From a virus, in IMG/VR virus record IMGVR_UViG_3300045988_091802: a DNA stretch of 49,646 bases, one strand, 5' to 3'. Position 1 is the first letter of the stretch. Every line of letters starts with the position of its first letter. Under the pieces are notes generated by a model. It was given only the letters and a program-made list of their open reading frames with translations, made no database searches and was not told the origin of the DNA. Shown piece after piece: positions 1 through 49,646 of the stretch. The translations under genes were made by a program, and so were the position numbers.

Positions 1-99
1 ATTTTTTTGTACAAACTTCTTGAAGACCAAGAAACGGAACTTATAGGACGCTTTGACACGTTGAAAGAAGCGCAAGAAAAGGTAATAGAAATGACCGAG
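1..99. repeat. Terminal direct repeat: bases 1-99 are identical to 49548-49646
   Basis: Base-by-base comparison of the window ends shows identity. This fits a circular assembly or a short terminal redundancy. Confidence 0.95.
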
Positions 100-543
100 G
101 AAGACGAAGACACAACCGTTTTTGACTTCTACACGGACGAACAGGAATACGAAGAAATAACCGACCGCGTGAAATCATACGCCGACGCTTGCAAGGTATT
201 GGGCATAGAACCCATGAACGAGCAAAACATGAAAGCGCAAGGTTTCAGACCGGACGAAGTAGCCCGGCGCAAGTTGGAAACCATAACGGAAGCACTTAAC
301 GAGGGTTGGAAGCCGGATTGGAACAATACCGACCAATGCAAGTATTACCCTTACTTTTTCATAAGAGAAAACGCCAAAGCGGAAGGTACTGCCGGGCTCT
401 CGTATGCGGTTACGAAGTACGCGGCTACGGTTACGGGTGCGTACGTCGGCTCTCGGCTTTGCTTCCACGATAGCAACACGGCACGTTACGCCGGTAATAC
501 ATTCACGGAACTATACGAACAAATTTTAATAGAGAAGATATGA
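1..543 (+). CDS. DGR variable protein 2, a small non-structural paralog. The true start is ATG 49539 across the junction, giving 181 aa
   Basis: The frame is open from ATG 49539 through the junction to the stop at 543. It contains VR2 (..AGLSYAVTKYAATVTGAYVGSRLCF..). It is a paralog of 46775-47515, sharing SYxDACKVLG and GWKPDWNNxxQxKYYP. Confidence 0.8.
   Translation: MFLYKLLEDQETELIGRFDTLKEAQEKVIEMTEEDEDTTVFDFYTDEQEYEEITDRVKSYADACKVLGIEPMNEQNMKAQGFRPDEVARRKLETITEALNEGWKPDWNNTDQCKYYPYFFIRENAKAEGTAGLSYAVTKYAATVTGAYVGSRLCFHDSNTARYAGNTFTELYEQILIEKI
391..463 (+). repeat. DGR variable repeat VR2, aligned to TR 36433-36505
   Basis: Hand alignment of 73 bp gives 14 mismatches, 13 at TR adenines. 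The exception is TR T36459 versus G417. Confidence 0.85.
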
Positions 544-1433: not shown

Positions 1434-2366
1434 ATGAGCCAAGACAGCATTATAATTTACCGCGATATAAGGGAAGCCGTTATGGGTTTGCCGCCCGAAT
1501 TGTGTAAGGCGGTAATGAAGGTTATTTTTGACTACGCATTTGATGACATAGAACCCGAAGAAGATACGGACGCGGTTGTTAAAGGTTTCTATTTGGCGTT
1601 TAAGTCAAGATTTGACATGAATATAGCCCGGCTGGAGAAAAACAAGGCGAACGGGAAAAAGGGAGGAAACCCCAATTTCACAAAGGGGAAACGCAACCCG
1701 TATTATCCCAAAGAAGATAACCAACAGCAAGAAAAAAATAACCGAGAGATAACCGAGAATATAAGCGGAGATAACCCAAAGATAACCCAAAGCGGAAAGA
1801 AAGATAACCGAGATATAACCGAAGATAACGGAATAGATAAACGGGGTATAACCGAAAAACGGGCAAAATCGGATAAGCGAGGGATAACCGAAGATAACCC
1901 AAACATAACCGAGAATGAAGAAAAAGATAACCCAAACATAAGCGAAGATAACCTATATCTATATCCATATCAATATAATAATAATTCTGTTGTTGATGTT
2001 GTTGATGATAACGCGCACGCGCGAGAACGAGAAAACAACAAGAAGTTTTTGGATGAGTTCTTCAAGGAAACGAACCGGGCGCAAATTGAGGTAATTTGTA
2101 TGCAGCTTCACACAAACCCGGAAACTTTGCGGAGCGAAGCCGAAGAAGTCATAGCGGAATGGGAACTAACGGAAGCCACGCACAGCGATTACACCGAACA
2201 GGCGCGGCACTTGATAAACCAACTACGGATAAAATACCGTTCAAAAGCGAATAACGATGGAACAGCAAGAGCAAGAAAAGCAGCAGCCGAAACAACCCCA
2301 ACGGGTAAACTTGGAACTGTTTGCGAAGGCAATAAGGCAAAGAAGAAACTGCGAAGCACGATTTAG
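1434..2366 (+). CDS. Replication organizer/initiator-like protein with a DUF6291-like N-terminus and an internal DNxxIT repeat region
   Basis: The N-terminus (DSIIIYRDIREAV...NIARLEKNKANGKKGG) resembles phage replisome-organizer-like DUF6291 proteins. It sits directly upstream of a DnaC-like loader and carries an iteron-like array. Confidence 0.6.
   Translation: MSQDSIIIYRDIREAVMGLPPELCKAVMKVIFDYAFDDIEPEEDTDAVVKGFYLAFKSRFDMNIARLEKNKANGKKGGNPNFTKGKRNPYYPKEDNQQQEKNNREITENISGDNPKITQSGKKDNRDITEDNGIDKRGITEKRAKSDKRGITEDNPNITENEEKDNPNISEDNLYLYPYQYNNNSVVDVVDDNAHARERENNKKFLDEFFKETNRAQIEVICMQLHTNPETLRSEAEEVIAEWELTEATHSDYTEQARHLINQLRIKYRSKANNDGTARARKAAAETTPTGKLGTVCEGNKAKKKLRSTI
1717..1953 (+). repeat. 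Phased ATAACC iteron-like array; candidate origin iterons inside the replication gene
   Basis: 13 perfect ATAACC plus 4 one-mismatch copies in 237 bp. Spacing is about 10-12 bp or multiples of that. An AT-rich tract follows at 1953-1990. Confidence 0.6.
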
Positions 2367-2976: not shown

Positions 2977-3097
2977 GCGCACAGAAATACCCCAATTTTC
3001 GACTAAAACGGCGATTGCGGTAAAATGGACGTGCGAAGTGGAAAAACGCGCCAAATGGAAGAAAAAGGGCAAATTAGGAAACTTCAAAAAACAAGGT

Positions 3098-3697
3098 ATG
3101 AAAATATACATAAGCGGACAGATAACCGGGCTTCCGGTTGAGGAATACACGGAAAGGTTTAACAGGGCGGAAGCCTACCTTACCGGGAAAGGCTACGAAG
3201 TAGTAAACCCACTTCGCAACGGTGTACCTTCCGGCGCACGTTGGCAGGAACAGATGAAGGCGGATATAAGGCTATTGCTTGATTGCGGCGCAATTTACTT
3301 GCTTGCTAATTGGGAGAAAAGCATCGGGGCGACTTTGGAACGGGAAATAGCAAAAGGGCTGGGCTTGATTATTGAGTATGAGAAAACGCCGAAGCACCGC
3401 GATATAAAAGCGGCGATACTAACAGTTATGGGCGTTGATTTCAAATCAATAGCGGAAGACAGCCGTAACCGTTGGCACGTTTACGCCCGGATGATTTACG
3501 CGCACCATTGCAAGAAGCGCGGAGAGCATACGCAAGGGATAGCGGAAGAAACGAGCCACGACCAAAGCACGATCTGTTACTATTTGCGCAACTACGATAC
3601 GGAATACAGGTTTAACCGTGAGTTCAGAGCCGCAGCCGAAAAGGTTGCGACCCTTCTAAGTGAAAAGTTAAGTAACCCAACGGACGTATTAAAGTAA
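3098..3697 (+). CDS. DUF4406-like domain (nucleoside 2-deoxyribosyltransferase-like fold) fused to a DnaA domain IV-like HTH
   Basis: The N-terminus (MKIYISGQITGLP...NWEKSIGATLEREIA) matches the DUF4406 pattern. The C-terminus (WHVYARMIYAHHC...HDQSTICYYL) resembles the DnaA C-terminal HTH. The ORF track offers a GTG at 3038, but I prefer ATG 3098. Confidence 0.6.
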   Translation: MKIYISGQITGLPVEEYTERFNRAEAYLTGKGYEVVNPLRNGVPSGARWQEQMKADIRLLLDCGAIYLLANWEKSIGATLEREIAKGLGLIIEYEKTPKHRDIKAAILTVMGVDFKSIAEDSRNRWHVYARMIYAHHCKKRGEHTQGIAEETSHDQSTICYYLRNYDTEYRFNREFRAAAEKVATLLSEKLSNPTDVLK

Positions 3698-3703
3698 TTC
3701 GAT

Positions 3704-3961
3704 ATGGAAAAGATAGAACAAAAACGTAGGGAGTGCAAACAACCTTCATTGCAACAGCTTGTATCGTCGTTAAAGCCGTGCAAGATATTAGACGAAGTAG
3801 AATATCAAATCCTATTCACAAGAAGGAAGGACAATAAAGAACCGGATAAATGGAGCGCAGGTTATTATAGCTTCGATAATTGCTGTTGGCTTTTGGTTGG
3901 GTACGGGAAAACTTTAAGAAGTGCAATTTTACACCTTAAAAAGCAATTAAGATTGAGATAA
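3704..3961 (+). CDS. Hypothetical protein
   Basis: 85-aa ORF packed tightly between neighbouring genes. Confidence 0.5.
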   Translation: MEKIEQKRRECKQPSLQQLVSSLKPCKILDEVEYQILFTRRKDNKEPDKWSAGYYSFDNCCWLLVGYGKTLRSAILHLKKQLRLR

Positions 3962-4914
3962 TGGATATAGAAACGTTACAAAAGCGTCAGAGGTGGACGT
4001 TAGAACAAAAGATAGACCATGCAGTAGCAACCGTAGAAAGCTATATAGCAAGAACTGGGAAAACGCCTTACGTCAGCTTTTCCGGTGGTAAGGATAGTAC
4101 GGTTTTACTTGATTTGGTACGCCGCTTTGTCAGCAAAGAGGTTAAGGGCGTTTTCTGTAACACAGGTAATGAATTTCCCGAAATAGTGCGCTTTGCGCGT
4201 TCTACGCCTAACGTTACGGTTATACACCCTAAACAAACCGTTAAGGCGGTTTTAGCAACATACGGTTTTCCATTGATAAGCAAGGAACAGGCTCACGGGA
4301 TAAGGCAAGCGAGAACAACCAAAAGCGAGAAGCTGCGTAAGATACGCCTTTACGGAACGGATAGGAACAAAGGGTATATTTCCGGGAAAATATCCGATAA
4401 GTGGCAGTTCCTTATAAACGCACCGTTCATGGTTTCAGAGCAATGCTGCGAGTGCTTAAAGAAAAGACCATTTAAGCAATATCAGAAAGAAACGGGCGAA
4501 GTTCCTATAATTGGAACATTGGCGACGGAAAGCGAAGCAAGAAAGCAACAATACGTTAGACGTGGTGGCTGCAATTCTTTCCGTGAAGGTCATTTAGGAA
4601 GTTACCCGTTAAGCATTTGGACGGACGCGGATATATGGGCGTACTTGCGGAAATTTAATGTTCCCTATTGCGAATTATACAACAAAGGAGCGGTTAGAAC
4701 CGGATGTATGTTTTGCGGATTTGGCGCACATTTGGAAAAGCCGACTTCTTCACGGTTTGCCATGCTTTACTACTTACACCCGAAAGCATACGAGGTATTC
4801 ATGAGGTATGAAAATAACGGGATTACCTACCGCGAAGCATTACGCGCCGTTGGTGTGGTTTTACCCGACGAATATAGACAACTAAATTTATTTCAAGATT
4901 ATGAGCGAATATAA
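3961..4914 (+). CDS. PAPS reductase-like PP-loop ATPase family protein
   Basis: PP-loop motif YVSFSGGKDST is present, with C-terminal Cys clusters (CCECLKK, GCMFCGFG). Confidence 0.75.
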   Translation: MDIETLQKRQRWTLEQKIDHAVATVESYIARTGKTPYVSFSGGKDSTVLLDLVRRFVSKEVKGVFCNTGNEFPEIVRFARSTPNVTVIHPKQTVKAVLATYGFPLISKEQAHGIRQARTTKSEKLRKIRLYGTDRNKGYISGKISDKWQFLINAPFMVSEQCCECLKKRPFKQYQKETGEVPIIGTLATESEARKQQYVRRGGCNSFREGHLGSYPLSIWTDADIWAYLRKFNVPYCELYNKGAVRTGCMFCGFGAHLEKPTSSRFAMLYYLHPKAYEVFMRYENNGITYREALRAVGVVLPDEYRQLNLFQDYERI

Positions 4915-9137: not shown

Positions 9138-10565
9138 ATGGAGAAGAAGAAAGAAGAAACAACGGAAAAACAAAGCAGGAAAGCGAACATAGCCGACATG
9201 GTGCAAAGCCAAGTTTTGCCGTTGGCGGATATAACCCCGAATAAGGGGCAAATTCCCGGCGTTCCTAAGAACCCAAGGCTTATCCATGATGATAAGTTTA
9301 AGCTATTGAAGCGCAGTATAGAGGAAGACCCGGAAATGTTGGGACTTCGGGAAATACTACTTTACCCCTACAAAGGGAAGAACATTATCGTAGGCGGAAA
9401 TATGCGCTACCGGGCATTGAAGGAACTGGGATATACGGAAGCAATAGTAAAGATATTGCCGCAGGCTTTCACGGCAGAGAAGCTACGCGCCATCGTCATA
9501 AAAGATAATAGCGGCTTTGGGGAATGGGATTGGGACGAATTAAGCAACGTTTGGGACGCTACCGACCTTGCTAATTGGGGCGTAGATGTGCCGGAATTGG
9601 ATAAGGTAGAAGTAGAGGAAGAAGCCGAAGAAGATGACTTCAACGTAGAGGAACACCTGCCAAAGAAAGCAAAGGCGAAGTTTGGTGACATATACGCTTT
9701 GGGCAAACACAGGCTTATTTGTGGAGACAGCACCGACGCGGAAACGGTTAGCTTGTTGGTTGGTGACAGCAAAGTAGATTTGCTTCTTACCGACCCTCCT
9801 TATAACGTGGATTATTCAAGCAAGAACGAAGCGTTAAACGCGGCAGACAAAGGCAACCGCATACAAAAGGACATCGCCAACGACAAAATGGGAGATGCGC
9901 AGTTTCAAGAGTTCCTAACGGCGGCTTTCACAAACGCGAACCACCACCTCAAGCAAGGCGGCGCGTTCTACATTTGGCACGCAGGTACGGAAGGGCTTAA
10001 CTTCAAGATTGCAGTAAAGCGCGTGGGTTGGGACTTGAAGCAGATACTTATTTGGAACAAAAATAACATGGTTTTAGGAAGACAGGATTATCAATGGAAG
10101 CACGAACCATGTTTATACGGTTGGAAGCCCGGCGCAGGACATTACTTCATAGCCCGGCGCGATTTGCTTACGGTGTACGAAGAAAAGGACATCGATATAG
10201 ACGCGCTTACAAAAGCGGAAATGAAAGACTTGCTTAAAAAGTTCCTTCAAGGCTCAATCCCCACGACCGTAATAGACGAAGACAAACCGCTAAGGAGCGA
10301 AGACCACCCAACAATGAAGCCGTTAAAACTTATGGGGCGTTTGATACGAAACAGCACACGACCGGGCGAAGTTGTGTTAGACCTTTTCGGCGGAAGCGGT
10401 AGTACGTTGATGGCGGCTGAACAGTTGGGGCGCGTTTGCTATACGGTTGAGTTAGACCCGTGTTATATAGACGTGATTATAAAGCGTTGGGAGGAATACA
10501 CGGGCGAGAAAGCAAAGTATTTGGGAAATTGCGCCAAAGAAGGTAACACCGAACAAAAAGAATAA
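9138..10565 (+). CDS. ParB-like nuclease domain fused to a DNA methyltransferase (N6-adenine/N4-cytosine type)
   Basis: ParB-like GGNMRYRAL, catalytic DPPY (LLLTDPPYNV) and AdoMet motif FGGSGST. I prefer ATG 9138 over the GTG at 9042. Confidence 0.8.
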   Translation: MEKKKEETTEKQSRKANIADMVQSQVLPLADITPNKGQIPGVPKNPRLIHDDKFKLLKRSIEEDPEMLGLREILLYPYKGKNIIVGGNMRYRALKELGYTEAIVKILPQAFTAEKLRAIVIKDNSGFGEWDWDELSNVWDATDLANWGVDVPELDKVEVEEEAEEDDFNVEEHLPKKAKAKFGDIYALGKHRLICGDSTDAETVSLLVGDSKVDLLLTDPPYNVDYSSKNEALNAADKGNRIQKDIANDKMGDAQFQEFLTAAFTNANHHLKQGGAFYIWHAGTEGLNFKIAVKRVGWDLKQILIWNKNNMVLGRQDYQWKHEPCLYGWKPGAGHYFIARRDLLTVYEEKDIDIDALTKAEMKDLLKKFLQGSIPTTVIDEDKPLRSEDHPTMKPLKLMGRLIRNSTRPGEVVLDLFGGSGSTLMAAEQLGRVCYTVELDPCYIDVIIKRWEEYTGEKAKYLGNCAKEGNTEQKE

Positions 10566-34316: not shown

Positions 34317-34577
34317 ATGCAAAACAGAAACGGCGACTTAGTAAGCGCACAAATTTCGGTAGCCGGAACAGTGGACTTTTCCGGCGGAAACTTCCGAATG
34401 GACACGCCTTTTTGCTTGAAGAACGACGGCGAAACGGCGGTAGTGCTTGAAGTGAACCTTTGGGGAATGCCCGAAGGGGAATTTATAAGCACACGGTTTG
34501 AAACGGGTTGGAATCCCGAAATCATACGAGAGATTAAAAAGACAAGTTCAGCAACCGCCCTTGTTTGGGGCTATTAA
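34317..34577 (+). CDS. Hypothetical protein, first gene of the DGR operon
   Basis: 86-aa ORF directly downstream of P3. Confidence 0.55.
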   Translation: MQNRNGDLVSAQISVAGTVDFSGGNFRMDTPFCLKNDGETAVVLEVNLWGMPEGEFISTRFETGWNPEIIREIKKTSSATALVWGY

Positions 34578-34588
34578 AACATTTGGAT

Positions 34589-35920
34589 ATGGGCATATTT
34601 ATAGGTATTGGCAACACGAAGCCAGCATTTCCCTACGATTACTACTACGGGGTGCAAATCAACGTGAATGTAGCGGACACGGCACTAACGAGAGTTGGGC
34701 GACCGGAATTGCACGTAACGCTGCCGGTGCAGTCATTGATGCGCCGTTGTTTGATTAACGACAGCGGAGAGGTAGTAACATACTTGCACCCGACAGACAG
34801 CACCAAGACCGACACGGGAGCGACGGCAGACCTTACGGGAACTACCGGGCAAGTCATGGTAGAGATACCGAAGCACTACCGCAAATTCGAGTTTGACGGG
34901 ACGATCATAACCGCGCTTATTTCCTTATACAACCTTCCGGGCTTCCACGAAGTGCCGAAAATGTATATCAGTGCATACGAAGCGACCATAGACCGGACGG
35001 CAAGCGAAACGCCGAAACTTGCAAGCGTAGTAAACAAAACCGCAAACTTCCGGGGAGGTAACAACAATTCAGCGTGGGACGGTACATATAGAAGCCTGTT
35101 AGGACTTCCGGCAACACAAACAAGCCTTACCAACTTCCGCAAGTATGCGCGGAACAGGGGAGAAGCCGGGTTTAACGGTTGCGGTTGGAATTGCAACCTA
35201 TACGCCGCGCAAGTGGCTATGTATTGGCTTTACGTCATTGAGTACGCAAACCGCAACTGCCAAGCCGCATACAACGCAGAACCTACAAGCGAAGGGTACA
35301 AACAAGGCGGATTGGGCGACGGCGTTACCACTATAAACAGTGGGAAATGGAACACTTACAACAGCTATTACCCGTTTGTGCCTTGCGGCTTTACAAACAG
35401 TTTGGGAAACCGTACCGGCGTAGTAGAGTTCACGATGCCGGACGAATACGACACGGGGGTAGTAACCAAAGTAAACGTACCTTCATATAGAGGTGTGGAA
35501 AATCCGTTTGGGCATTTGTGGAAGTGGACGGACGGCTGCAAGTGCGAGATACAGAGCGACACGGACGGAGCTTTATCGAAGTTCTACGTTTGCTTAGACC
35601 CTTCCAAGTTCCAAGACAGTAGTTATAACGACTACGATATGCGCGGAGAATTGCCGAGAAAAGAGGGGTACGTTAAGCGCATGATGATAGGCGAATACGG
35701 CGACATCATGCCGACGGAGGTAGGCGCAAGTTCTACGACCCACTTTGCGGACTACTTCTATACCAATATACCGACTTCCGGCGCGGCTATGAGGGGTGTC
35801 TTGTTCGGTGGTGGCGCGTCTAACGGCGCGGGTGCCGGGCTCTCGTGTGCGCGTACGGGTAGCGCGGCTGCGTCTGCGGGTGCGTACTTCGGCTCTCGGC
35901 TTTGCTTTATCCCGGCGTAG
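34589..35920 (+). CDS. DGR variable (target) protein 1, a putative receptor-binding tail fibre with a C-terminal VR
   Basis: The C-terminus ..GVLFGGGASNGAGAGLSCARTGSAAASAGAYFGSRLCFIPA is encoded by VR1. Located after the tail tip genes. I prefer ATG 34589 over the TTG at 34565. Confidence 0.85.
   Translation: MGIFIGIGNTKPAFPYDYYYGVQINVNVADTALTRVGRPELHVTLPVQSLMRRCLINDSGEVVTYLHPTDSTKTDTGATADLTGTTGQVMVEIPKHYRKFEFDGTIITALISLYNLPGFHEVPKMYISAYEATIDRTASETPKLASVVNKTANFRGGNNNSAWDGTYRSLLGLPATQTSLTNFRKYARNRGEAGFNGCGWNCNLYAAQVAMYWLYVIEYANRNCQAAYNAEPTSEGYKQGGLGDGVTTINSGKWNTYNSYYPFVPCGFTNSLGNRTGVVEFTMPDEYDTGVVTKVNVPSYRGVENPFGHLWKWTDGCKCEIQSDTDGALSKFYVCLDPSKFQDSSYNDYDMRGELPRKEGYVKRMMIGEYGDIMPTEVGASSTTHFADYFYTNIPTSGAAMRGVLFGGGASNGAGAGLSCARTGSAAASAGAYFGSRLCFIPA
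35794..35906 (+). repeat. DGR variable repeat VR1, aligned to the full TR
   Basis: Hand alignment of 113 bp to 36393-36505 gives 25 mismatches, all at TR adenines. Confidence 0.9.
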
Positions 35921-36007: not shown

Positions 36008-36367
36008 ATGAACGAAAATAACAATAACCGAAAGGAACAGCAGGAGGATGACGGCAGTCTGTCGTTTTTGGCGATACCGCAAGACGAAGGAAACAAGCAT
36101 TTCAACTGCCGGGAAACAACCCAGCAGAAACTAATCAACCTTACGTTTTGGGTTTGCGACTTCATAGAGGGAGTTAAAACGAAATTCGGCGCGGAACGCT
36201 TCTTAGTTAAGATAAAGAAGAACCGGGATGACAAAGACAGCGAAGCCGAAAAGTTCTTTACCAATTCAAGCGAAATAAAATACGTTTTGAAGGAAATAAA
36301 GAAACGGAACGCTTTCCCTCGCCGGGTTACCATGAGGGCAAGCGGAACGCGCTATTACTTCGAGTGA
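36008..36367 (+). CDS. Candidate DGR accessory protein, in the Avd position but not obviously Avd-like
   Basis: 119 aa, between the target gene and the TR. The basic C-terminus fits. The sequence does not look like a four-helix bundle to me. Confidence 0.45.
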   Translation: MNENNNNRKEQQEDDGSLSFLAIPQDEGNKHFNCRETTQQKLINLTFWVCDFIEGVKTKFGAERFLVKIKKNRDDKDSEAEKFFTNSSEIKYVLKEIKKRNAFPRRVTMRASGTRYYFE

Positions 36368-36392: not shown

Positions 36393-36505
36393 GGGTGTCT
36401 TGTTCGGTGGTAACGCGAATAACAGCGCGAATGCCGGGCTCTCGTATGCGAATACGAATAACACGGCTACGAATACGAATGCGAACATCGGCTCTCAGCT
36501 ATACT
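36393..36505 (+). repeat. DGR template repeat (TR)
   Basis: Adenine-rich. In the VR frame it reads GVLFGGNANNSANAGLSYANTNNTATNTNANIGSQ, with 10 AAY codons. It matches VR1, VR2 and VR3. Confidence 0.9.
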
Positions 36506-36626: not shown

Positions 36627-37661
36627 ATGAAAAGGTTGGGCAACCTATACGATAAAATTATAAGTTTGGAAAACTTACGGATCGCAGACAAGCGGGCTCG
36701 TAAGGGCAAACTTAACACCTACGGCGTTAAGGTACATGACCGGCACGCCGAAGCCGACCTTTTGGCTTTGCACGAAGAATTGAAGGCAGGAACTTACAAG
36801 ACTTCGGAATATAGCACCTTTTTTATTTACGAACCGAAAGAACGTGAGATTTTCAGACTACCGTACTTTCCCGACCGCATCGTACACCACGCAGTAATGA
36901 ACGTGTTAGAACCCGTATGGGTGTCCATATTCACGGCGGACACATACAGTTGCATCAAAGGGCGAGGAATACAGGCGGCAGCGGACAAGTTACGGCGCGT
37001 GATAGACAGGGACAAGCCCGGTTGCGCCTATTGTCTGAAAATTGACATACGGAAGTTTTACCCTTCCATCGACCACGCTATATTAAAGCGGATTGTTCGC
37101 CGGAAGATTAAGGACACACGGCTACTTAGACTTCTTGACGAAATAATAGACAGCGCGGACGGACTGCCCATCGGGAACTACCTAAGCCAATTCTTAGCAA
37201 ACCTCATGCTTGCGTACTTTGACCATTGGGTTAAAGAGACCAAGCGCGTAAGGTATTATTTCAGATACGCCGACGATATTGTAGTATTGCACAGCGACAA
37301 AAGGGTATTACGCGCCTTGCTTGCCGACTTTGAACGGTATTTGAACACCGAACTAAACCTGTATGTCAAAGACAACAAACAGATTTTCCCGGTAGCGAAA
37401 GACCACAAAGACAGGCACGGGCGCGGCATTGACTTTTTGGGATATGTGTTTTACCACAACGAAACACGGCTAAGAAAGCGTATCAAACAGAACTTTTGCC
37501 GGAAGGTAGACAAGTTGAGGAAGCGGAAGAAACCGATAGGCGAAGCGCAGTTCATGCAAGCCGTAGCCGCGTGGTGGGGATGGGCGAAACACAGCGATAG
37601 CGAGTATTTTATCAACAAGTTAAATAAAATTTCACCTTATGAAATCAAATTCAAACGTTAG
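36627..37661 (+). CDS. DGR reverse transcriptase
   Basis: RT motifs including the DGR-typical IGNYLSQ and the catalytic YADD (RYADDIVVL). 344 aa, 121 nt downstream of the TR. Confidence 0.9.
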   Translation: MKRLGNLYDKIISLENLRIADKRARKGKLNTYGVKVHDRHAEADLLALHEELKAGTYKTSEYSTFFIYEPKEREIFRLPYFPDRIVHHAVMNVLEPVWVSIFTADTYSCIKGRGIQAAADKLRRVIDRDKPGCAYCLKIDIRKFYPSIDHAILKRIVRRKIKDTRLLRLLDEIIDSADGLPIGNYLSQFLANLMLAYFDHWVKETKRVRYYFRYADDIVVLHSDKRVLRALLADFERYLNTELNLYVKDNKQIFPVAKDHKDRHGRGIDFLGYVFYHNETRLRKRIKQNFCRKVDKLRKRKKPIGEAQFMQAVAAWWGWAKHSDSEYFINKLNKISPYEIKFKR

Positions 37662-40220: not shown

Positions 40221-41537
40221 TTACCCATTATTATCAGTTTTCCCGAAGTTGTCAAACCGTGCCATATTTTCGGCTTTTGCCGCATCTACTATTTTAATAT
40301 AAGGCTTCATAGCTTTATAGTCGCTGTGTCCCGTCCATTCCATTATAACCGAAGCAGGAATACCAAGGCGAAGCGCATTAACTATAAAAGTTCGCCTTCC
40401 GCAATGTGTGGTAAGAACCGCATATTTAGGTACTACAACCTCTTTGCGTTCACTACCACTATACGACACGACACTAACAAGCTCATCCAACCCGGCGATT
40501 TCGGCAGCTTCATGTAGATGCTCATTCATTTTTACGTTGCTTAATACGGGCAAAGCCTTATTTCCGGGCAAGTGTATTCCCTTGTATTTATCAAGTATTG
40601 CAAGAGCATAGCTATTTAGCTCAATATGTAGCCTATCGGTTGTTTTCTTTGTAACAATAGAGATATAAGGAGGAACGGCATCGCGTTTTACGTCAGAAGA
40701 TTTAAGCCGCGCTACGTCAGAATAACGCAACCCGGTAAAACAACAAAAACAAAACACATCGCGAACAGGAGGTAACGACGGTTTATTAGGGGGAAACTTG
40801 AAGTTCATAAAGTGCTGCAATTCGTCCCACGTCAAAAATATGACCTCTTTACAGTCCAATCCCTTGAAGCGTGGGCGATATTGCAAATGAGCAGCACCGG
40901 AGTAATAACCGTTAGCGGAAGCCCAACGCAAGAACCAACGAACGAAACCTACGTTTTTGGCGACCGTGGTATTAAGCTGTCCTTCTTCTTTTTGCAGATA
41001 CGACACAAAGGCGGCAAAGTCAGACTTTGAAAAATTATCTAAGGAGAGTTCCGGGCGAAAGTTCATTAAGTGATGTTTGATACTTGCAAATTTAGTATAG
41101 GTTGCTTTCGTCCAATTATTCGTAACACCCATTTCGGAAGTGAACCTATCAAAGACCTCGAAGAAGCCCGGCGATTGTTGCTGGGCTTCTTCTTTTTCAT
41201 CGGTAACATGCCGACCGATTGAAGCATAGAAAAGCGGCTTAAATTCTTTCGGCGTTGGCGTTCGGTGGTGTTCAAGTTCAAAACGCGTTAAGACTTCTTC
41301 GACCTTAGAAACCATATTAGAAAGACCCCTATTTATTTCGCCCGAAGTTTGCTTATAGCAATTCTTAGAGCCGAGCGTTACCCGTTGGCTTTCCTTATCC
41401 CATTTGTTAGCGTCAATTACATACCCGGAATGAATATCTATACGATACCCGGAATAACATACGCGCAAACGGATAGGAACGCTTTGGGCGTTCATACCTT
41501 CACGGGTTGATAGTTGAAACTTAACGCTATACTTCAT
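40221..41537 (-). CDS. int: Tyrosine recombinase/integrase (Bacteroidetes type, with an N-terminal arm-binding domain)
   Basis: Catalytic pattern ..GLRYSDV.., ..HCGRRTF.., ..GHSDYKAMKPYI... N-terminus is typical of Bacteroidetes integrases. Confidence 0.9.
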   Translation of the reverse strand: MKYSVKFQLSTREGMNAQSVPIRLRVCYSGYRIDIHSGYVIDANKWDKESQRVTLGSKNCYKQTSGEINRGLSNMVSKVEEVLTRFELEHHRTPTPKEFKPLFYASIGRHVTDEKEEAQQQSPGFFEVFDRFTSEMGVTNNWTKATYTKFASIKHHLMNFRPELSLDNFSKSDFAAFVSYLQKEEGQLNTTVAKNVGFVRWFLRWASANGYYSGAAHLQYRPRFKGLDCKEVIFLTWDELQHFMNFKFPPNKPSLPPVRDVFCFCCFTGLRYSDVARLKSSDVKRDAVPPYISIVTKKTTDRLHIELNSYALAILDKYKGIHLPGNKALPVLSNVKMNEHLHEAAEIAGLDELVSVVSYSGSERKEVVVPKYAVLTTHCGRRTFIVNALRLGIPASVIMEWTGHSDYKAMKPYIKIVDAAKAENMARFDNFGKTDNNG

Positions 41538-44694: not shown

Positions 44695-46755
44695 ATGAAT
44701 AAACAAGTAATCATTAAGCGTTTGACGCTTGTAAACTTCAAGGGTTTACGGAATGTCGCAATAGATTTTAGCGACAATGTTACAACCATTAGCGGACGTA
44801 ACGGAACTGGTAAAACAACTATCAAAGACGCTTTTAGTTGGCTTCTTTGGGGTAAGAACAGCGAAGGCGACACCGATAGCAAGTTTGGCATCAAGACCAA
44901 CGACGCGGACGGTAATTTTATTCCCGACCTCGAACACGGCGTTACGGGTGTGTTTGAAATCATAGACAAAGAAACGGGAGCGGTTGAAACCGTAGAACTT
45001 CGCCGCGTACTTGTAGAAGAATGGAAAGTACCCAACGGGGAAACAAAGCGTGTGCTGAAAGGACACCACACCGACTTTTTCTATAACGGTGTGCCATTGA
45101 AGACGAAAGCGGAATACGAAGCGCGGATTAACGCCATCATTCCCGAAGCAGTCTTTAAGATTATTACAGACCCCTACTATTTCCTTACGCTTCATTGGAA
45201 GGCACAGCGTGAAATGCTTTTGCAGATAGCAGGGAACGTAAGCGAAGAAGAAGTAGCGAGAGGTAGCGAACGTTTTGCCCTATTGCTTGCGCAGCTTACC
45301 GGAAAATCATTGGAAGACTATAAGCGAGAGGTAGCCGCAAAGAAAGCCAAGGTAAACGAACAACTCGAAAAGATACCGACAGCCATAAACGCAATTACAC
45401 AGGTTACGCCGGAAGCACCGGATTACGAAGCGTTGGAGAAAGAAAAGGCAGCTTTGGAAGTGGAGCTTACACAAATAGACGAATCGGTAGCATCGGAAGC
45501 GGAAGCCAACCGGATAGCCTACGAGAAAGCATCGAAGACGCAAGCGGAGATTAACGCGAAACGGACACAGCAACAGAAACTGTTATTTGAAGCCAAAGAC
45601 AAGGCGAGAAGCGAAGCGTATAAGAAAAACGAAGCCTACAACAAGGCAGAACGTGAACTGCGCCAAGTGGAATCAGACCAAACGAACGAAGAACGGCGGT
45701 ACAACGCGGAGCGTTCCCGGCTTCAAGATGACATCAGACGCACGGAAGAAAACAAAAGCAGATACAAGGCGCAACAGGACGAACTGCGCGAAAAGTGGTA
45801 TTCGGTAAGTGCGGAAGAATTTACAGACACTTCCAACCTTGTATGTCCGTTGTTCAAACACGTATGCGCAGACCGGGAAGCATTAGAAAAATACGAAGCA
45901 GACCGGGAAGCAGCTCGAAACAAGTTCTACGAAGACAAACAGGCGCGGCTCGACAACATAAACAAGACCGGAACGCAGCTTACCCAAACGATAGAGGAAC
46001 AAGATGCGGAAATAGCACGGCTTCAAGGATTGTTAGCCGAAACGGAAGAAAAGCACAAAACCGAAGTTTCCGGCTTCGCGGAAAAGCGCGAACAGTTGAA
46101 AAAGACGATGGACGCTAACCCACGTGTAAGCACAGAACCGAATATCAAAGGGGAAGACATACCCGAATGGGTTACGCTTCAAAGCGAGATAGAAACGCTT
46201 TCCGCCGGGCTTCCGAAACAGGATAGCACAACAGCGACCAATACCTCCGTACTTCGCAAGCGTAAGGCAGAAATAACCGCACGGCTTGACGAAGTAAAAC
46301 AGAAATTGAACATTCGCGCAACCATTGAAACCAACGAAAAGCGGATTAAGGAGCTTAAAGCGGAAGCGGAAACGCTGGCGCAGGAAAAAGCCAACTTGCA
46401 GACCGAAGAAACCACAATAGACGATTTTGTTACGGCGCAGATGAACGAAGTAGAACGGCGCGTAAACGCATTGTTTAGCCGGGTACAGTTCAAGATGTAC
46501 CGGACGCAGATAGAAGACGCGAAGCAAGTACCGGACTGCATTTGCTACATAGACGGCGTGAAGTATTCAGACAAGAACGCCGCCGGGAAAGTAAACGCCG
46601 GGCTTGACGTGATTAACACGCTTTGCGCGTTCCACGGGGTAAGCGCACCTATTTTCGTGGATAACGCAGAAAGCATCAACGAATTTATACCGGTAAACAG
46701 CCAACTCGTAAAGTTGGTGGTAACTACCGAAGACTTCAAGGTAAACAATTTCTAA
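44695..46755 (+). CDS. SMC/SbcC/Rad50-like AAA ATPase (recombination)
   Basis: N-terminal Walker A (ISGRNGTGKTT), long coiled coil, C-terminal ..IFVDNAESI... Confidence 0.75.
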   Translation: MNKQVIIKRLTLVNFKGLRNVAIDFSDNVTTISGRNGTGKTTIKDAFSWLLWGKNSEGDTDSKFGIKTNDADGNFIPDLEHGVTGVFEIIDKETGAVETVELRRVLVEEWKVPNGETKRVLKGHHTDFFYNGVPLKTKAEYEARINAIIPEAVFKIITDPYYFLTLHWKAQREMLLQIAGNVSEEEVARGSERFALLLAQLTGKSLEDYKREVAAKKAKVNEQLEKIPTAINAITQVTPEAPDYEALEKEKAALEVELTQIDESVASEAEANRIAYEKASKTQAEINAKRTQQQKLLFEAKDKARSEAYKKNEAYNKAERELRQVESDQTNEERRYNAERSRLQDDIRRTEENKSRYKAQQDELREKWYSVSAEEFTDTSNLVCPLFKHVCADREALEKYEADREAARNKFYEDKQARLDNINKTGTQLTQTIEEQDAEIARLQGLLAETEEKHKTEVSGFAEKREQLKKTMDANPRVSTEPNIKGEDIPEWVTLQSEIETLSAGLPKQDSTTATNTSVLRKRKAEITARLDEVKQKLNIRATIETNEKRIKELKAEAETLAQEKANLQTEETTIDDFVTAQMNEVERRVNALFSRVQFKMYRTQIEDAKQVPDCICYIDGVKYSDKNAAGKVNAGLDVINTLCAFHGVSAPIFVDNAESINEFIPVNSQLVKLVVTTEDFKVNNF

Positions 46756-46774: not shown

Positions 46775-47515
46775 ATGAATTACAAAGAAATCAAGTCCTA
46801 CGAGGACGCTTGTAAGGTTTTGGGCGTTCAGCCCATCAGTGAAAACGCGGTAGCAGCTTTCCCGGCAGAAGACCGAAAAAGTATGTTAGCTTACCATAAG
46901 CTGACAATAATAGCACGAGCCATTAACGGAGGGTGGAAGCCGGATTGGAACAACAGAAGCCAATACAAGTATTACCCAGTATTCTACTACGAACATGCCG
47001 GGCTCTCGTATGCGGCTGCGAATTACGCGGCTTCGAATACGGTTGCGAACTTCGGCTCTCGGCTTTGCTTTCAAACGGAAGCGATGAGCGACTACGCCGC
47101 CGCCACGTTCGCCGACCTATACACGGACTTCTATTGCCTTCCGGCTTCGGTGGAGAAAGAAGAAAGCCAACAGAGTAACAAGCAGCCCGGCGACTTCTTG
47201 AAAATGGCAACTGATATTATAGAAACACAGTTGCAGCCGTTGGCGCAGGAAAAGAAAACGCGCGGTGTTGTGCTGATTGCTTGCGACGCGGACACGACGG
47301 ACGAAAAAGGAGAAAGCGCAACCGGGGCAATTATTGGAATTGTCGGAAACGGAAAAGCGTTGGCACACGGAGTAGCCGAACTTATGACGCGGAAAGAATC
47401 CGCACCGCTTGTAAAACAGGCTACGGAACTTATAGCGATGCAAAGACTACAAGAGCGGATTAAGCAAGAGGGCTCGAAGTTCCTCGCGGAATTATTCACA
47501 CAACAAGAAAAATAG
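46775..47515 (+). CDS. DGR variable protein 3, a small non-structural paralog with the VR in mid-protein
   Basis: Contains VR3 (..AGLSYAAANYAASNTVANFGSRLCF..) at residues about 75-99 of 246. Paralog of the junction-spanning protein. Confidence 0.8.
   Translation: MNYKEIKSYEDACKVLGVQPISENAVAAFPAEDRKSMLAYHKLTIIARAINGGWKPDWNNRSQYKYYPVFYYEHAGLSYAAANYAASNTVANFGSRLCFQTEAMSDYAAATFADLYTDFYCLPASVEKEESQQSNKQPGDFLKMATDIIETQLQPLAQEKKTRGVVLIACDADTTDEKGESATGAIIGIVGNGKALAHGVAELMTRKESAPLVKQATELIAMQRLQERIKQEGSKFLAELFTQQEK
46997..47069 (+). repeat. DGR variable repeat VR3, aligned to TR 36433-36505
   Basis: Hand alignment of 73 bp gives 12 mismatches, all at TR adenines. Confidence 0.88.
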
Positions 47516-48359: not shown

Positions 48360-49118
48360 ATGGAACTTACCGTTATATCTTCAAGCAGCGAAGGCAACTC
48401 CTACGTTTTACAGAACGCAGGGGAAGCCTTGCTGCTCGAAGCCGGTAAGCCGTTCAAGGACACATTAGCGGCATTGGGCGGCAATTTACGCAAGGTGGTA
48501 GGATGCTTGATAACGCACGAACACGGCGACCACGCCGGACGCATAAGCGAGGTACTTAATTACGCCGTACCTGTATTCGCTTCACAAGGAACGATAGAAG
48601 GAGCGGCAAAGTACATAAAGAGCAACTACCAACCAAACGCGATTAAAGCCATTGGCGGAGGTTACGAACGGTTGAACTTGGGCGGATTTACGGTTATACC
48701 GTTCCCGGCAAAGCACGATGCGGCAGAACCGCTCGGCTTCTACATTTGGCACGAAGAAACAGGCGGTATCTTGTTCGCTACCGACACCTACTATCTTCCT
48801 TGCACGTTCAAGGGGTTAAGCAACATTCTTATAGAGTGCAACTATGACCCGGATATATTGGCGCGTAGGGTTGCAAACGGAGATATACCGGAAGTTCTGC
48901 AGGAACGGGTAAGACGCAGCCACCTCAGTTATTACACTTGTTTAGACGCATTGAGGGCGAACGACCTTACAGCGGTAAACAACATTGTATTAATCCATAT
49001 CAGCGACGGAAACGGCGACGGTGTGGCATTTCGGGAAGGCATAGCGAAAGCAACCGGTAAAACGGTGCATATAGCGAAGCCCGGATTAAAAATCAAATTC
49101 AACAAAACACCATTTTAG
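48360..49118 (+). CDS. Metallo-beta-lactamase fold hydrolase/nuclease
   Basis: HxHxDH motif (ITHEHGDHAG). Confidence 0.75.
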   Translation: MELTVISSSSEGNSYVLQNAGEALLLEAGKPFKDTLAALGGNLRKVVGCLITHEHGDHAGRISEVLNYAVPVFASQGTIEGAAKYIKSNYQPNAIKAIGGGYERLNLGGFTVIPFPAKHDAAEPLGFYIWHEETGGILFATDTYYLPCTFKGLSNILIECNYDPDILARRVANGDIPEVLQERVRRSHLSYYTCLDALRANDLTAVNNIVLIHISDGNGDGVAFREGIAKATGKTVHIAKPGLKIKFNKTPF

Positions 49119-49538: not shown

Positions 49539-49646
49539 ATGAAAAAGATTTTTTTGTACAAACTTCTTGAAGACCAAGAAACGGAACTTATAGGACGCTT
49601 TGACACGTTGAAAGAAGCGCAAGAAAAGGTAATAGAAATGACCGAG
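49539..49646 (+). CDS. 5' end of DGR variable protein 2, continuing at base 100 of the window through the circular junction
   Basis: ATG 49539 (MKKIFLYKLLEDQ...). Bases 49548-49646 duplicate 1-99. Confidence 0.75.
   Translation, partial: MKKIFLYKLLEDQETELIGRFDTLKEAQEKVIEMTE

What the first reader, a model, noticed from the sequence alone, without database searches (positions are those of the whole stretch)
391..463. Remote second VR inside a small early-region protein that spans the circular junction
Bases 391-463 align to the 3' 73 nt of the TR (36433-36505). There are 14 mismatches, 13 of them at TR adenines. The exception is TR T36459 versus G417. The host ORF (ATG 49539 through the junction to 543, 181 aa) has no structural-gene neighbours. 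It sits in the rightward early operon, after the MBL hydrolase gene and before the replication genes, about 13 kb from the RT going round the circle. Homology to the TR stops abruptly at 391, so only a truncated part of the TR is used. Trans-acting homing into a short, apparently cytoplasmic early protein is atypical for phage DGRs, which usually diversify tail fibres.
Basis: seen in the sequence. Interest (0 to 1): 0.85.

Follow-up and report, generated by a model that had tools for sequence, protein, structure and literature searches.

The report
Remote DGR target in early phage gene
A Bacteroides-type temperate phage uses its mutagenic reverse-transcriptase system (DGR) to rewrite its tail protein and also two small non-structural paralogous proteins far from the cassette; this is real and active in nature, but the same protein family has already been seen as a distal DGR target in other gut phages.

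Summary
Bases 391-463 match TR 36433-36505 with 14 mismatches, 13 of them at TR adenines (Fisher P = 3e-8). The VR actually starts at 388. Its last three "A mismatches" are fixed IMH/IMH* differences. The ORF is 183 aa, not 181.

There is also a third VR (46994-47069) in a paralogous gene.

VR2 is not a fossil:
- Near-identical homologs differ almost only at codons that hold TR adenines.
- A genome 98.6-99.6% identical differs at 11 nt in the gene, 10 of them inside the VR.
- In relatives whose TR carries non-A substitutions, VR1, VR2 and VR3 all carry the same substitutions.

The host protein belongs to phrog_11581. This is a large, unnamed family of Bacteroidota phage proteins (3,689 cluster representatives). 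I found the family to be a distal DGR target in three other phages with unrelated TRs: LoVEphage, Bacteroides phage BT-TP2 and crAss-like cr56_1.

Distal, non-structural phage DGR targets have been published (Benler 2021; Nature 2025; Wu 2018). I therefore rate this a new member of a known kind. The protein's function and fold remain unknown.

The parts
388..463 (+). VR2. The diversified tract is 388-454. The 3' end, 455-463 (continuing to about 465), is the IMH-like segment with fixed differences from the TR.
   Evidence: 13 of 14 mismatches at TR adenines; codon 133 (388-390) is also NNT-variable; the last three differences are invariant in all VRs; 10 of 11 nt differences from a near-identical genome fall here.
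391..403 (+). 13-nt adenine-free block GCCGGGCTCTCGT, identical to the TR. It is the probable main 5' homology anchor for cDNA integration in VR2 and VR3.
   Evidence: Sequence. Non-A TR variants in this block are copied into the VRs of relatives. Identity of >=8 bp is sufficient in BPP-1 (PMC3240598). Its role here is inferred.
49539..49646 (+). 5' part of the VR2 host gene (ATG 49539). It continues across the circular junction.
   Evidence: All homologs start MKKIFLYK.
1..543 (+). Remainder of the VR2 host gene (1-99 duplicate 49548-49646; stop at 541-543). The protein is 183 aa and belongs to phrog_11581. Residues 1-55 form a DUF7336/DUF2188-like mini-domain; residues 59-183 form the family core.
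   Evidence: translation; phrog_11581, E = 1e-31; model, BFVD matches.
46994..47069 (+). VR3, a second remote variable region with the same TR segment and the same 5' boundary as VR2.
   Evidence: 12 mismatches over 73 nt, all at TR adenines; near-identical homologs differ only here.
46775..47515 (+). VR3 host gene (246 aa). It is a paralog of the VR2 host: the family core lies at residues 1-120, followed by a linker and an extra C-terminal alpha/beta domain.
   Evidence: D6 repeat, 75% nt identity; phrog_11581, E = 3e-45.
35794..35906 (+). VR1, the cassette-adjacent variable region at the 3' end of the tail protein gene. It uses the full 113-nt TR.
   Evidence: 25 mismatches, all at TR adenines.
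34565..35920 (+). VR1 host gene (tail protein, phrog_5302). The start codon is uncertain.
   Evidence: phrog_5302, E = 4e-140.
36008..36367 (+). Small ORF in the position where DGR accessory genes (Avd) usually lie. It belongs to phrog_19665 and has no Avd/HRDC signature.
   Evidence: Its role is inferred from position only.
36393..36505 (+). Template repeat (TR). VR2 and VR3 use only 36430-36505. The 3' end (36497-36505) is IMH*-like.
36627..37661 (+). DGR reverse transcriptase (344 aa) with the IGNYLSQ motif.
   Evidence: RVT_1, E = 3e-18; phrog_1423, E = 2e-126; sequence.

Best explanation
Bases 388-463 are a functional, remote variable region (VR2) of the phage's single diversity-generating retroelement.

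Proposed mechanism:
- The TR (36393-36505) is transcribed.
- The adjacent RT (36627-37661) copies it into cDNA, with random incorporation opposite template adenines.
- The cDNA replaces VR1 in the tail gene and, in trans, the homologous tracts VR2 (13.4 kb away round the circle) and VR3.
- Targeting depends on the IMH-like 3' end that all three VRs share (..GGCTCTCGGCTTTGCT, against ..GGCTCTCAGCTATACT in the TR).
- The 5' end of the exchange is set by where TR/VR homology ends (TR 36430). The 13-nt adenine-free block 391-403 is the likely main anchor.

Result: 12 codons (7 AAY, 4 ACG, 1 TAT, 1 ATC; 20 adenines) of a 183-aa non-structural protein are rewritten, giving up to about 7e11 protein variants.

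What is shown: the adenine-specific pattern, natural hypervariability, and concerted evolution with the TR.

What is inferred from the BPP-1 paradigm: the biochemical steps and the roles of the IMH and the anchor.

The host protein (phrog_11581 family) presents the variable tract on a conserved core of about 120 aa. It is most likely an intracellular variable binder used early in infection, for example against variable host defence or host factors. I rate that functional part at only about 0.35. The confidence of 0.9 given here applies to the claim that VR2 is an active trans target of the DGR.
For: 1. Adenine-specific TR/VR pattern: 13 of 14 mismatches at A, P = 2.9e-8. All three VRs are in the same frame, with TR adenines at codon positions 1 and 2.
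2. Intact cassette: RVT_1 RT with IGNYLSQ; TR between a small ORF and the RT; VR1 and VR3 with 0 non-A mismatches.
3. Population hypervariability: ten homologs 93-96% identical differ at 83 residues inside 138-152 and at 16 outside. Per-column entropy is 3.1-3.4 bits at AAT codons (2.5-3.2 at the two AAC codons), about 1 bit at ACG and 0 bits at GCG/GCT (mean 1.80 inside against 0.21 outside).
4. DNA level: a genome 98.6-99.6% identical over 15 kb differs at 11 nt in the gene. Ten lie in 388-454, and its VR2 shows no non-A mismatch to this TR.
5. Concerted evolution: in six IMG/VR relatives whose TRs carry non-A substitutions (e.g. CTCTCG->CTTGCG, GGCTACG->CCCCTCG), the VR1, VR2 and VR3 tracts found carry the same substitutions (0-1 non-A mismatches, 10-19 A mismatches).
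6. The same family is a distal target of unrelated DGRs: BT-TP2 (10 of 10 mismatches at A), LoVEphage (19 of 19) and crAss-like cr56_1 (15 of 15, also using only the TR 3' part).
7. Truncated VRs and trans targets fit known DGR behaviour: >=8 bp identity suffices, and the 5' boundary is governed by homology (PMC3240598; PMC5758913).
8. For the functional guess: no signal peptide is evident in the sequence. The gene sits in non-structural early, recombination or modification modules in all four lineages. The family-wide variable segment is 4-fold depleted in K/E/Q/M/W.
Against: - One non-A mismatch (T->G) exists in this genome's VR2.
- No significant hairpin or cruciform follows the VRs (z-scores 0.2-1.6).
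- No Avd/HRDC accessory protein is recognisable.
- There is no adenine-free homology upstream of the variable codon 133, so how the 5' junction forms for tracts that include it is unexplained.
- VR2 can decay: one relative (L001) has a degenerate VR2 and another (L014) a frameshifted one.
- Nothing here shows retrohoming directly in this particular genome.
- For the function: no homolog of known function, no PADLOC, Pfam, NCBIfam or PDB match. The AlphaFold model is of low confidence across the VR.
Confidence: 0.9

Rival explanations
1. Fossil VR. VR2 was once a DGR target, or was copied from VR1, but is no longer rewritten. The adenine pattern would be a frozen record.
For: This genome's VR2 has one non-A mismatch. 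In relative L001 the VR2 homolog is clearly decayed, with many non-A mismatches including in the anchor and the IMH. In L014 it is frameshifted. So loss does happen in this lineage.
Against: Near-identical genomes and proteins differ almost only at A-coded positions of VR2. Non-A TR substitutions are copied into VR2 in relatives. 51 of 52 non-A positions are intact, and the anchor and IMH are intact here.
Confidence: 0.06
2. The protein is a virion-associated or exported adhesin or receptor-binding accessory encoded outside the structural module. VR2 would then diversify host or mucus binding as VR1 does, rather than an intracellular function.
For: All classical phage DGR targets are receptor-binding proteins. 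The VR tract shares the AGLS...GSRLCF end with the tail protein's VR. Tentaclins show that second phage targets can be adhesins (PMC10743442). Bacuni phages have a distant target proposed to act in adhesion (PMC8143477).
Against: No signal peptide or lipobox is visible (sequence). No Ig or fibre domains were found. The gene lies among recombination, replication or modification genes on the early side in four unrelated phages. The core is only about 120 aa with a predicted helical scaffold.
Confidence: 0.15
3. The protein is a prophage-encoded sensor used for superinfection exclusion or defence. Its variable loop would recognise proteins of competing phages.
For: The phage is temperate (integrase 40221-41537). 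DGRs have been linked to defence-like loci (PMC8008677; PMC10053308 listed). Some family members carry extra domains (the C-terminal domain in the VR3 host).
Against: No match to any PADLOC defence model. The family is also present and DGR-targeted in crAss-like cr56_1, among early genes of a phage with no recognised lysogeny. The gene is in the lytic-direction operon, not next to the repressor or integrase.
Confidence: 0.12
4. The similarity of VR2 to the TR reflects ordinary recombination or gene conversion among VR1, VR2 and VR3, or assembly chimerism of a variable population, not RT-mediated homing.
For: The three VRs share identical flanks, which could support homologous recombination. 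Metagenome assemblies of hypervariable loci can be consensus chimeras (the L014 frameshift).
Against: DNA-DNA gene conversion would not confine differences to positions that are adenine in a fourth, non-coding copy. The VRs differ from each other at exactly those positions while all match the TR elsewhere. The same pattern recurs in independent assemblies and in isolate phage genomes.
Confidence: 0.03

Closest known systems
Quimbyvirus / 'Quimbyviridae' second DGR target (Benler et al. 2021, Microbiome 9:78, PMC8008677) and LoVEphage
   Same: A phage DGR with one VR in a tail-module gene and a second VR in a distal, apparently non-structural gene. In LoVEphage I verified a distal VR (19 of 19 mismatches at TR adenines) inside a phrog_11581 homolog of the VR2 host. 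Its neighbourhood (methyltransferases, tRNA ligase, resolvase) matches the one described for Quimbyvirus.
   Different: Different phage (71 kb against 49.5 kb), different RT and TR. There the full-length TR is used and there is only one distal target. Here there are two paralogous distal targets, a truncated TR segment, and neighbours that are recombination and replication genes rather than methyltransferases. That LoVEphage equals the Quimbyvirus case is my inference; no paper I could search links the names.
Four gut prophage species with a second VR distal to the RT cassette (Nature 2025, PMC12629997)
   Same: Bacteroidota temperate phages. Remote VRs were found by BLAST of the TR against the whole genome, and the second VR lies near counter-defence-type genes.
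   Different: I could not establish whether this phage lineage is among those four. No triple-VR architecture and no shared protein family is mentioned in the text I read.
Bordetella phage BPP-1 DGR (mtd VR, IMH, hairpin, Avd, bRT)
   Same: Adenine-specific TR->VR transfer, AAY codon design, IMH/IMH* asymmetry at the 3' end, and a homology-governed 5' boundary. Trans action of TR/RT on a separate target has been shown experimentally there (PMC3240598; PMC5758913).
   Different: BPP-1 has a single, adjacent target at the C-terminus of a C-type-lectin tail fibre protein, a clear (GC)14 element, an 8-bp hairpin and Avd. Here there is no GC-only element, no significant hairpin and no recognisable Avd. 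The VR is followed by about 26 (VR2) or about 150 (VR3) further residues.
Tentaclins (Baykov et al. 2023, PMC10743442)
   Same: A second DGR target gene in gut phages, with the VR not at the extreme C-terminus of the protein.
   Different: Tentaclins are defined by an N-terminal C-lectin domain followed by Ig-like domains and are proposed adhesins. The proteins here have no Ig domains and no detectable lectin domain.
Non-adjacent DGR targets catalogued by Wu et al. 2018 (PMC5758913)
   Same: Many phage-associated DGRs have one adjacent and one non-adjacent target within 50 kb. Multiple targets of one DGR can have different 5' mutagenesis boundaries.
   Different: That survey classified targets by VR/domain class and did not single out this small-protein family.

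Membership tests
DGR variable region (target of mutagenic retrohoming) | TR/VR repeat pair whose differences fall (almost) only at TR adenines | tested here: met
   13 of 14 mismatches at A (21 A among 73 nt), P = 2.9e-8. With the 3-nt extension, 14 of 15.
DGR variable region (target of mutagenic retrohoming) | Cognate DGR-class reverse transcriptase next to the TR ([I/L/V]GxxxSQ motif) | tested here: met
   ORF 36627-37661: RVT_1 E = 2.8e-18, phrog_1423 E = 1.8e-126, motif IGNYLSQ in the sequence. The closest GenBank phage RTs are DGR RTs of crAss-like phages.
DGR variable region (target of mutagenic retrohoming) | VR lies in frame in a coding gene, with TR adenines at codon positions 1 and 2 (AAY design, no stops generated) | tested here: met
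   The frame is identical in VR1, VR2 and VR3. Codons are 7 AAY, 4 ACG, TAT and ATC.
DGR variable region (target of mutagenic retrohoming) | IMH at the VR 3' end that differs from IMH* in the TR and is not itself diversified | tested here: met
   All VRs in this genome and in six relatives end ..CGGCTTTGCT, against TR ..CAGCTATACT. The encoded R-L-C has 0-0.14 bits of entropy. The function of the element was not tested.
DGR variable region (target of mutagenic retrohoming) | Hairpin/cruciform just downstream of the IMH (BPP-1-type targets) | tested here: inconclusive
   Only weak stems are present (5 bp after VR2, about 6 bp after VR3). Folding z-scores are 0.5, 0.2 and 1.6, no better than shuffles. 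The VR2 stem is weakened in relatives (AAC->GAC).
DGR variable region (target of mutagenic retrohoming) | Accessory protein (Avd, HRDC or MSL class) | tested here: not met
   ORF 36008-36367 sits in the Avd position but has no Pfam or NCBIfam hit and only phrog_19665 (unknown function). About a quarter of DGRs lack a recognised accessory gene (PMC7290462), so this does not exclude membership.
DGR variable region (target of mutagenic retrohoming) | Hypervariability in natural populations confined to A-templated positions | tested here: met
   protein entropy follows the TR codons; 10 of 11 nt differences inside the VR.
DGR variable region (target of mutagenic retrohoming) | Non-adenine TR changes are copied into the VR (unidirectional information flow) | tested here: met
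   Six relatives with variant TRs have 0-1 non-A mismatches in the VR1/VR2/VR3 tracts found. Exceptions are one decayed and one frameshifted VR2.
DGR variable region (target of mutagenic retrohoming) | RT-dependent cDNA synthesis and replacement of the VR | not testable with these tools
   This needs a marker-transfer or amplicon experiment.
C-type lectin-fold DGR variable proteins | The VR is displayed on a CLec/FGE-sulfatase-like fold, usually at the C-terminus | tested here: inconclusive
   No Pfam lectin, FGE or DUF1566 hit at E <= 1. No PDB hit by profile or by Foldseek on the models (best E = 0.25 and 0.86). However, the models have pLDDT < 50 across the VR. Longer family members carry a CLec-like 'VLWGGSA...GSRLAV' motif, and Benler 2021 reports a C-type lectin domain for the Quimbyvirus target.
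phrog_11581 (unnamed phage protein family) | Significant match to the family profile over the ~120-aa core (..SYEDACKxLG..ALNEGWxPDW..KYYPxF..[variable]..GSRLCF..YAGxxF..) | tested here: met
   VR2 host E = 1.1e-31; VR3 host E = 2.6e-45. The profile of A3 finds 3,689 cluster representatives. The motifs are conserved.
Tentaclins | [quoted passage not shown] | tested here: not met
   No Ig-like or lectin domains in Pfam. The C-terminal domain of the VR3 host is predicted as helix, beta-hairpin, helices.
Anti-Pycsar Apyc1 (neighbouring MBL hydrolase 48360-49118, considered as a marker of a counter-defence island) | Match to PF23023 above the gathering score (50 bits) | tested here: not met
   15.9 bits, covering residues 15-65 only. 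No PDB sequence match. The protein is a generic MBL fold only.

The most novel reading that the evidence does not exclude
phrog_11581 proteins are a dedicated class of DGR-programmable intracellular binders. On this reading they are a phage-encoded, antibody-like repertoire expressed early in infection, whose variable loop is continually rewritten to neutralise or engage variable host factors such as defence-system components. The class would have been recruited independently by unrelated DGRs in temperate siphophages, LoVEphage/Quimbyvirus-like phages and crAss-like phages. This phage would carry two such paralogs with different appended domains, so one TR would feed both receptor recognition (the tail) and an intracellular arms race.
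Probability: 0.3. Interest if true: 0.85.

Novelty: new member of a known kind. Interest (0 to 1): 0.45.

Why it matters
On its own, this is a well-supported extra example of a phage DGR acting in trans on a non-structural gene. That architecture is already in the literature.

The added value lies at the family level:
- The distal targets in four unrelated Bacteroidota phage lineages, including an isolate (BT-TP2) and a crAss-like phage, belong to one unnamed small-protein family.
- Each is rewritten from a different TR.
- Across its 50%-identity cluster representatives (70 segments matched among the 148 best hits), the variable segment has the amino-acid composition expected of NNY-coded tracts.

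This gives a concrete, cloneable candidate for asking what phages gain from hypervariable proteins that are probably intracellular. It also shows that cassette-centred DGR surveys (for example Roux 2021, which states that remote targets were not detectable) undercount such targets. Finally, this genome offers a natural three-target system, with full and truncated TR use, for studying how 5' cDNA integration boundaries are set.

Tried and rejected
1. Megablast of 4 kb and 24 kb of the window against GenBank phages: no match. The phage itself is not in that collection.
2. Pfam, NCBIfam and PADLOC on the VR2/VR3 hosts and their unknown neighbours: nothing.
3. C-type lectin fold. The AlphaFold models (pLDDT 78.7 and 70.4) are unconfident across the VR. 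Foldseek against PDB gave no hit with E < 0.25, and the PDB profile search gave nothing. The fold stays unassigned. BFVD gave only uncharacterised family members and DUF7336/DUF2188-like matches to the N-terminal 55 aa.
4. Apyc1 identity of the neighbouring MBL hydrolase (suggested by a precomputed weak hit): rejected at 15.9 bits against a 50-bit cut-off.
5. Hairpin downstream of the VRs: not better than shuffled sequence.
6. Additional VRs elsewhere: an adenine-tolerant scan of both strands with three TR sub-windows finds only VR1, VR2, VR3 and the TR.
7. Literature search for 'remote VR' or phrog_11581 returned virtual-reality papers. No paper links LoVEphage with Quimbyvirus by name. The Hankyphage paper and the Yutin crAss paper do not mention second VRs.
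8. Chance or gene-conversion explanations were rejected on the adenine specificity relative to a non-coding fourth copy.
Full report
**1. The observation**

The window is a circularly permuted assembly. Bases 1-99 repeat 49548-49646, so the unique length is 49,547 bp.

An ungapped comparison of 391-463 with 36433-36505 gives 14 mismatches in 73 nt. Thirteen are at TR adenines and one is T36459->G417, exactly as reported. The TR segment has 21 A and 52 non-A, so the bias has Fisher P = 2.9e-8. The probability of 52 matching non-A positions at a random site is about 1e-34.

The cassette is complete:
- VR1, 35794-35906, lies at the 3' end of a tail protein gene (phrog_5302). It has 25 mismatches, all at A.
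- A small ORF lies at 36008-36367.
- The TR is 36393-36505.
- A 344-aa RT lies at 36627-37661 (RVT_1, phrog_1423, motif IGNYLSQ).

**2.

- The host ORF is 183 aa.
- Homology does not stop at 391. The preceding codon (388-390, ACT) aligns with TR AAT 36430-36432. It keeps an NNT pattern in VR2 and VR3 of every relative examined and is itself variable among homologs (9 residue types). The VR therefore begins at 388. Upstream of it, both remote VRs lose homology at the same TR position.
- The last three "A mismatches" (G, T, G at 455, 459, 461) are the same in every VR of this genome and of six relatives, and they encode an invariant R-L-C. They are the fixed IMH/IMH* asymmetry, not diversification.
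- The T->G change is private to this genome. It produces AAG (Lys), which NNT codons cannot encode. It is a point mutation, or a rare non-A RT error, since the last homing event.
- The repeat search found a fourth family member, VR3, at 46994-47069. It has 12 of 12 mismatches at adenines over the same 73 nt and lies in ORF 46775-47515. That ORF is a paralog of the VR2 host (75% nt identity just upstream of the VR; both phrog_11581).
- An adenine-tolerant scan of both strands finds no further copies.

**3. Is VR2 active or a fossil?**

Three independent lines indicate that it is active.

*Protein populations.* A search of 5.8 billion proteins returned 1,223 homologs. The ten closest (93-96% identity) differ from the window protein at 83 residues within 138-152 and at only 16 outside. 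Ten of those 16 are the single change N162D. Across 53 close homologs, per-column entropy follows the TR codons:

| TR codon | Entropy | Residue types |
|---|---|---|
| AAT | 3.1-3.4 bits | 13-14 |
| AAC | 2.5-3.2 bits | 11-12 |
| ACG | 0.7-1.3 bits | 3-5 |
| ATC | 1.85 bits | 4 |
| GCG / GCT | 0 bits | 1 |

Mean entropy is 1.80 bits inside the tract and 0.21 outside. The VR3 host shows the same pattern.

*DNA level.* A contig 98.6-99.6% identical over 15 kb (L140) differs from the window at 11 nt in the 552-nt gene. Ten lie in 388-454, and its VR2 has no non-A mismatch to the window's TR.

*Concerted evolution.* Six IMG/VR contigs carry both an RT (80-92% identical) and the distal genes. Their TRs differ from this one at non-adenine positions (for example CTCTCG->CTTGCG, GGGCTC->GGTCTT, GGCTACG->CCCCTCG). 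In each genome, the VR1, VR2 and VR3 tracts that were found carry those same substitutions, with 0-1 non-A and 10-19 A mismatches. Only continuing TR-to-VR information flow explains this.

Decay is possible, however. One relative has a degenerate VR2 and another a frameshifted one.

**4. Mechanism**

The data fit canonical mutagenic retrohoming acting in trans.

- The shared 3' element (..TCGGCTCTCGGCTTTGCT) marks the three recipients.
- The diversified tract ends just upstream of it, as Wu et al. describe for DGRs generally (PMC5758913).
- The 5' limit coincides with the end of TR/VR homology. In BPP-1, >=8 bp of identity suffices for 5' cDNA integration, and truncated VRs still home through internal sites (PMC3240598).
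- The 13-nt adenine-free block 391-403 is the obvious anchor here.

Twenty adenines lie in the transferred tract. By my count from the codons, this allows about 1e12 DNA variants and about 7e11 protein variants.

Open points:
- Codon 133, at the very edge of homology, varies less than the core positions, yet it does vary and has no adenine-free homology upstream.
- No significant hairpin follows the VRs.
- The ORF in the Avd position has no recognisable Avd/HRDC signature.

**5. The host protein**

Both remote targets belong to phrog_11581, of unknown function. A profile of the family retrieves 3,689 representatives of 50%-identity clusters (1,925 at E <= 1e-10). Most are proteins of 115-190 aa with a ~120-aa core at the C-terminus, and some carry two tandem cores. 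Genome hits are spread across Bacteroidota, including Bacteroides, Phocaeicola, Barnesiella, Prevotella, Dyadobacter, Elizabethkingia, Chryseobacterium, Niastella and Pedobacter.

The core reads ..[KR]SYEDACKxLG..(helices)..ALNEGWxPDW..KYYPxF-[variable, 20-35 aa]-GSRLCF..ELAxYAGxxFxxIY... In 70 matched representatives, the variable segment holds 6.2% K+E+Q+M+W against 26.2% in the flanks. It is enriched in S, G, Y, F, C and H, the repertoire of NNY codons.

AlphaFold models are confident for the helical scaffold but below pLDDT 50 across the VR. Foldseek and profile searches of the PDB find nothing. I therefore cannot confirm a C-type lectin fold. Longer members do carry a CLec-like 'VLWGGSA...GSRLAV' motif.

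The VR2 host adds an N-terminal 55-aa DUF7336/DUF2188-like mini-domain. The VR3 host adds a C-terminal alpha/beta domain. No signal peptide is evident in either sequence.

Gene order around the two targets is: an SbcC-like ATPase (44695-46755), the VR3 host, an unknown gene, an MBL hydrolase, an unknown gene, the VR2 host, an unknown gene, then DUF6291 and DnaC-like replication genes. All are on the + strand, downstream of the integrase/repressor region. The MBL hydrolase is not Apyc1 (15.9 bits against a 50-bit cut-off).

**6. The same family is a distal DGR target elsewhere**

| Phage | DGR features | Distal VR in a phrog_11581 homolog |
|---|---|---|
| Bacteroides phage BT-TP2 (isolate on B. 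thetaiotaomicron; 431-aa RT; unrelated TR) | TR 40633-40744; VR1 in the giant gp44 | VR at 122-233, 10 of 10 mismatches at adenines, in an unannotated ORF spanning the record ends |
| LoVEphage | TR 70752-70864 (-) | VR at ~55203-55315, 19 of 19 at adenines, among methyltransferase, resolvase and tRNA-ligase genes |
| crAss-like cr56_1 (Suoliviridae) | TR next to tail protein gp51 | VR in gp09, ~55 kb away among small early genes, 15 of 15 at adenines, using only the 3' 63 nt of the TR |

**7. Comparison with the literature**

- Wu et al. 2018 list many phage-associated DGRs with one adjacent and one non-adjacent target. They note that multiple targets can have different 5' boundaries.
- Benler et al. 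2021 describe Quimbyvirus DGRs whose second VR lies in a non-structural gene within a "defence-related island". They stress that this was unprecedented for phage DGRs. The LoVEphage neighbourhood matches that description, but the identity of the two is my inference.
- A 2025 Nature paper reports four gut prophage species with a second VR distal to the RT, near counter-defence genes.
- Bacuni phages have a distant target, and tentaclins are another kind of second target.
- Roux et al. 2021 state that their global survey could not detect remote targets.

The architecture is therefore known. Three things seem not to have been stated in the papers I could read:
- The distal targets of these different phages are one protein family.
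- crAss-like phages have such a target.
- A phage can carry two paralogous distal targets with truncated TR use.

**8. Verdict**

The DGR interpretation is confirmed and strengthened: VR2 is active and conserved. The claim of atypicality should be toned down. Function is unknown. My best guess is an intracellular variable binder used in phage-host conflict (about 0.35), with virion-associated adhesin and superinfection-exclusion sensor as rivals.

Novelty: a new member of a known kind. Interest is moderate.

Noticed in passing
window 46994-47069 (ORF 46775-47515): A third VR of the same DGR in a paralog of the VR2 host. It has 12 mismatches over 73 nt, all at TR adenines, the same 5' boundary as VR2, and is hypervariable among near-identical homologs. 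The host has an extra C-terminal alpha/beta domain of unknown function.
   Followed up: yes
window 1738-1976 (inside ORF 1434-2366, DUF6291): An iteron-like array: GATAACC[CG]A[AG]A repeated with an 11-nt period (7 exact pattern matches against 0.5 expected), followed by an AT-rich (CTATAT)x4 tract. It is probably the phage replication origin embedded in the initiator gene.
   Followed up: partly
window 1-99 and 49548-49646: An exact 99-nt terminal direct repeat, so the window is a circular or terminally redundant assembly of 49,547 bp. The VR2 host gene spans the junction.
   Followed up: yes
L139 4207-4269 (NC_055890.1 crAss-like phage cr56_1, gp09) with TR at L138 2280-2370: A crAss-like (Suoliviridae) phage has a distal VR about 55 kb from its RT, in a phrog_11581 homolog among small early genes. 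All 15 mismatches are at TR adenines and only the 3' 63 nt of the TR are used. I found no mention of this in the crAss DGR papers I read.
   Followed up: partly
L135 (PQ571279.1 Bacteroides phage BT-TP2) 122-233 and 44900-45224: This isolate phage has a distal VR (10 of 10 mismatches at adenines) in an ORF that is unannotated because it spans the ends of the linear record. The record ends also carry a terminal duplication.
   Followed up: partly
L001 9912-9984 and L014 ~10396-10468 (IMG/VR relatives): In one relative the VR2 homolog is degenerate, with many non-A mismatches including in the anchor and IMH, while VR3 stays intact. In another, VR2 has a 1-nt indel and frameshift (a pseudogene or an assembly error at a hypervariable site).
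   Followed up: partly
window 36008-36367: The ORF in the usual Avd position (phrog_19665, conserved with this DGR type) has no Avd/HRDC signature. It may be a different class of DGR accessory protein, or unrelated to the DGR.
   Followed up: partly
window 48360-49118: An MBL-fold hydrolase between the two remote targets. A precomputed weak hit to Anti-Pycsar Apyc1 did not hold up (15.9 bits against a 50-bit cut-off; no PDB sequence match).
   Followed up: yes
window 1-165 of the VR2 host protein (nt 49539-49646 + 100-~156): The N-terminal 55 residues are predicted (pLDDT ~90) as a beta-beta-alpha-beta mini-domain. It resembles stand-alone phage proteins annotated DUF7336/DUF2188 (TM up to 0.87 on the target).
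   Followed up: no
window 3038-4914: A DUF4406 (nucleoside 2-deoxyribosyltransferase-like) protein fused to a DnaA-C HTH, and a PAPS-reductase-family gene, lie downstream of the replication genes. A PAPS reductase also sits near the distal VR in LoVEphage. This may be a shared DNA-modification or counter-defence theme.
   Followed up: no
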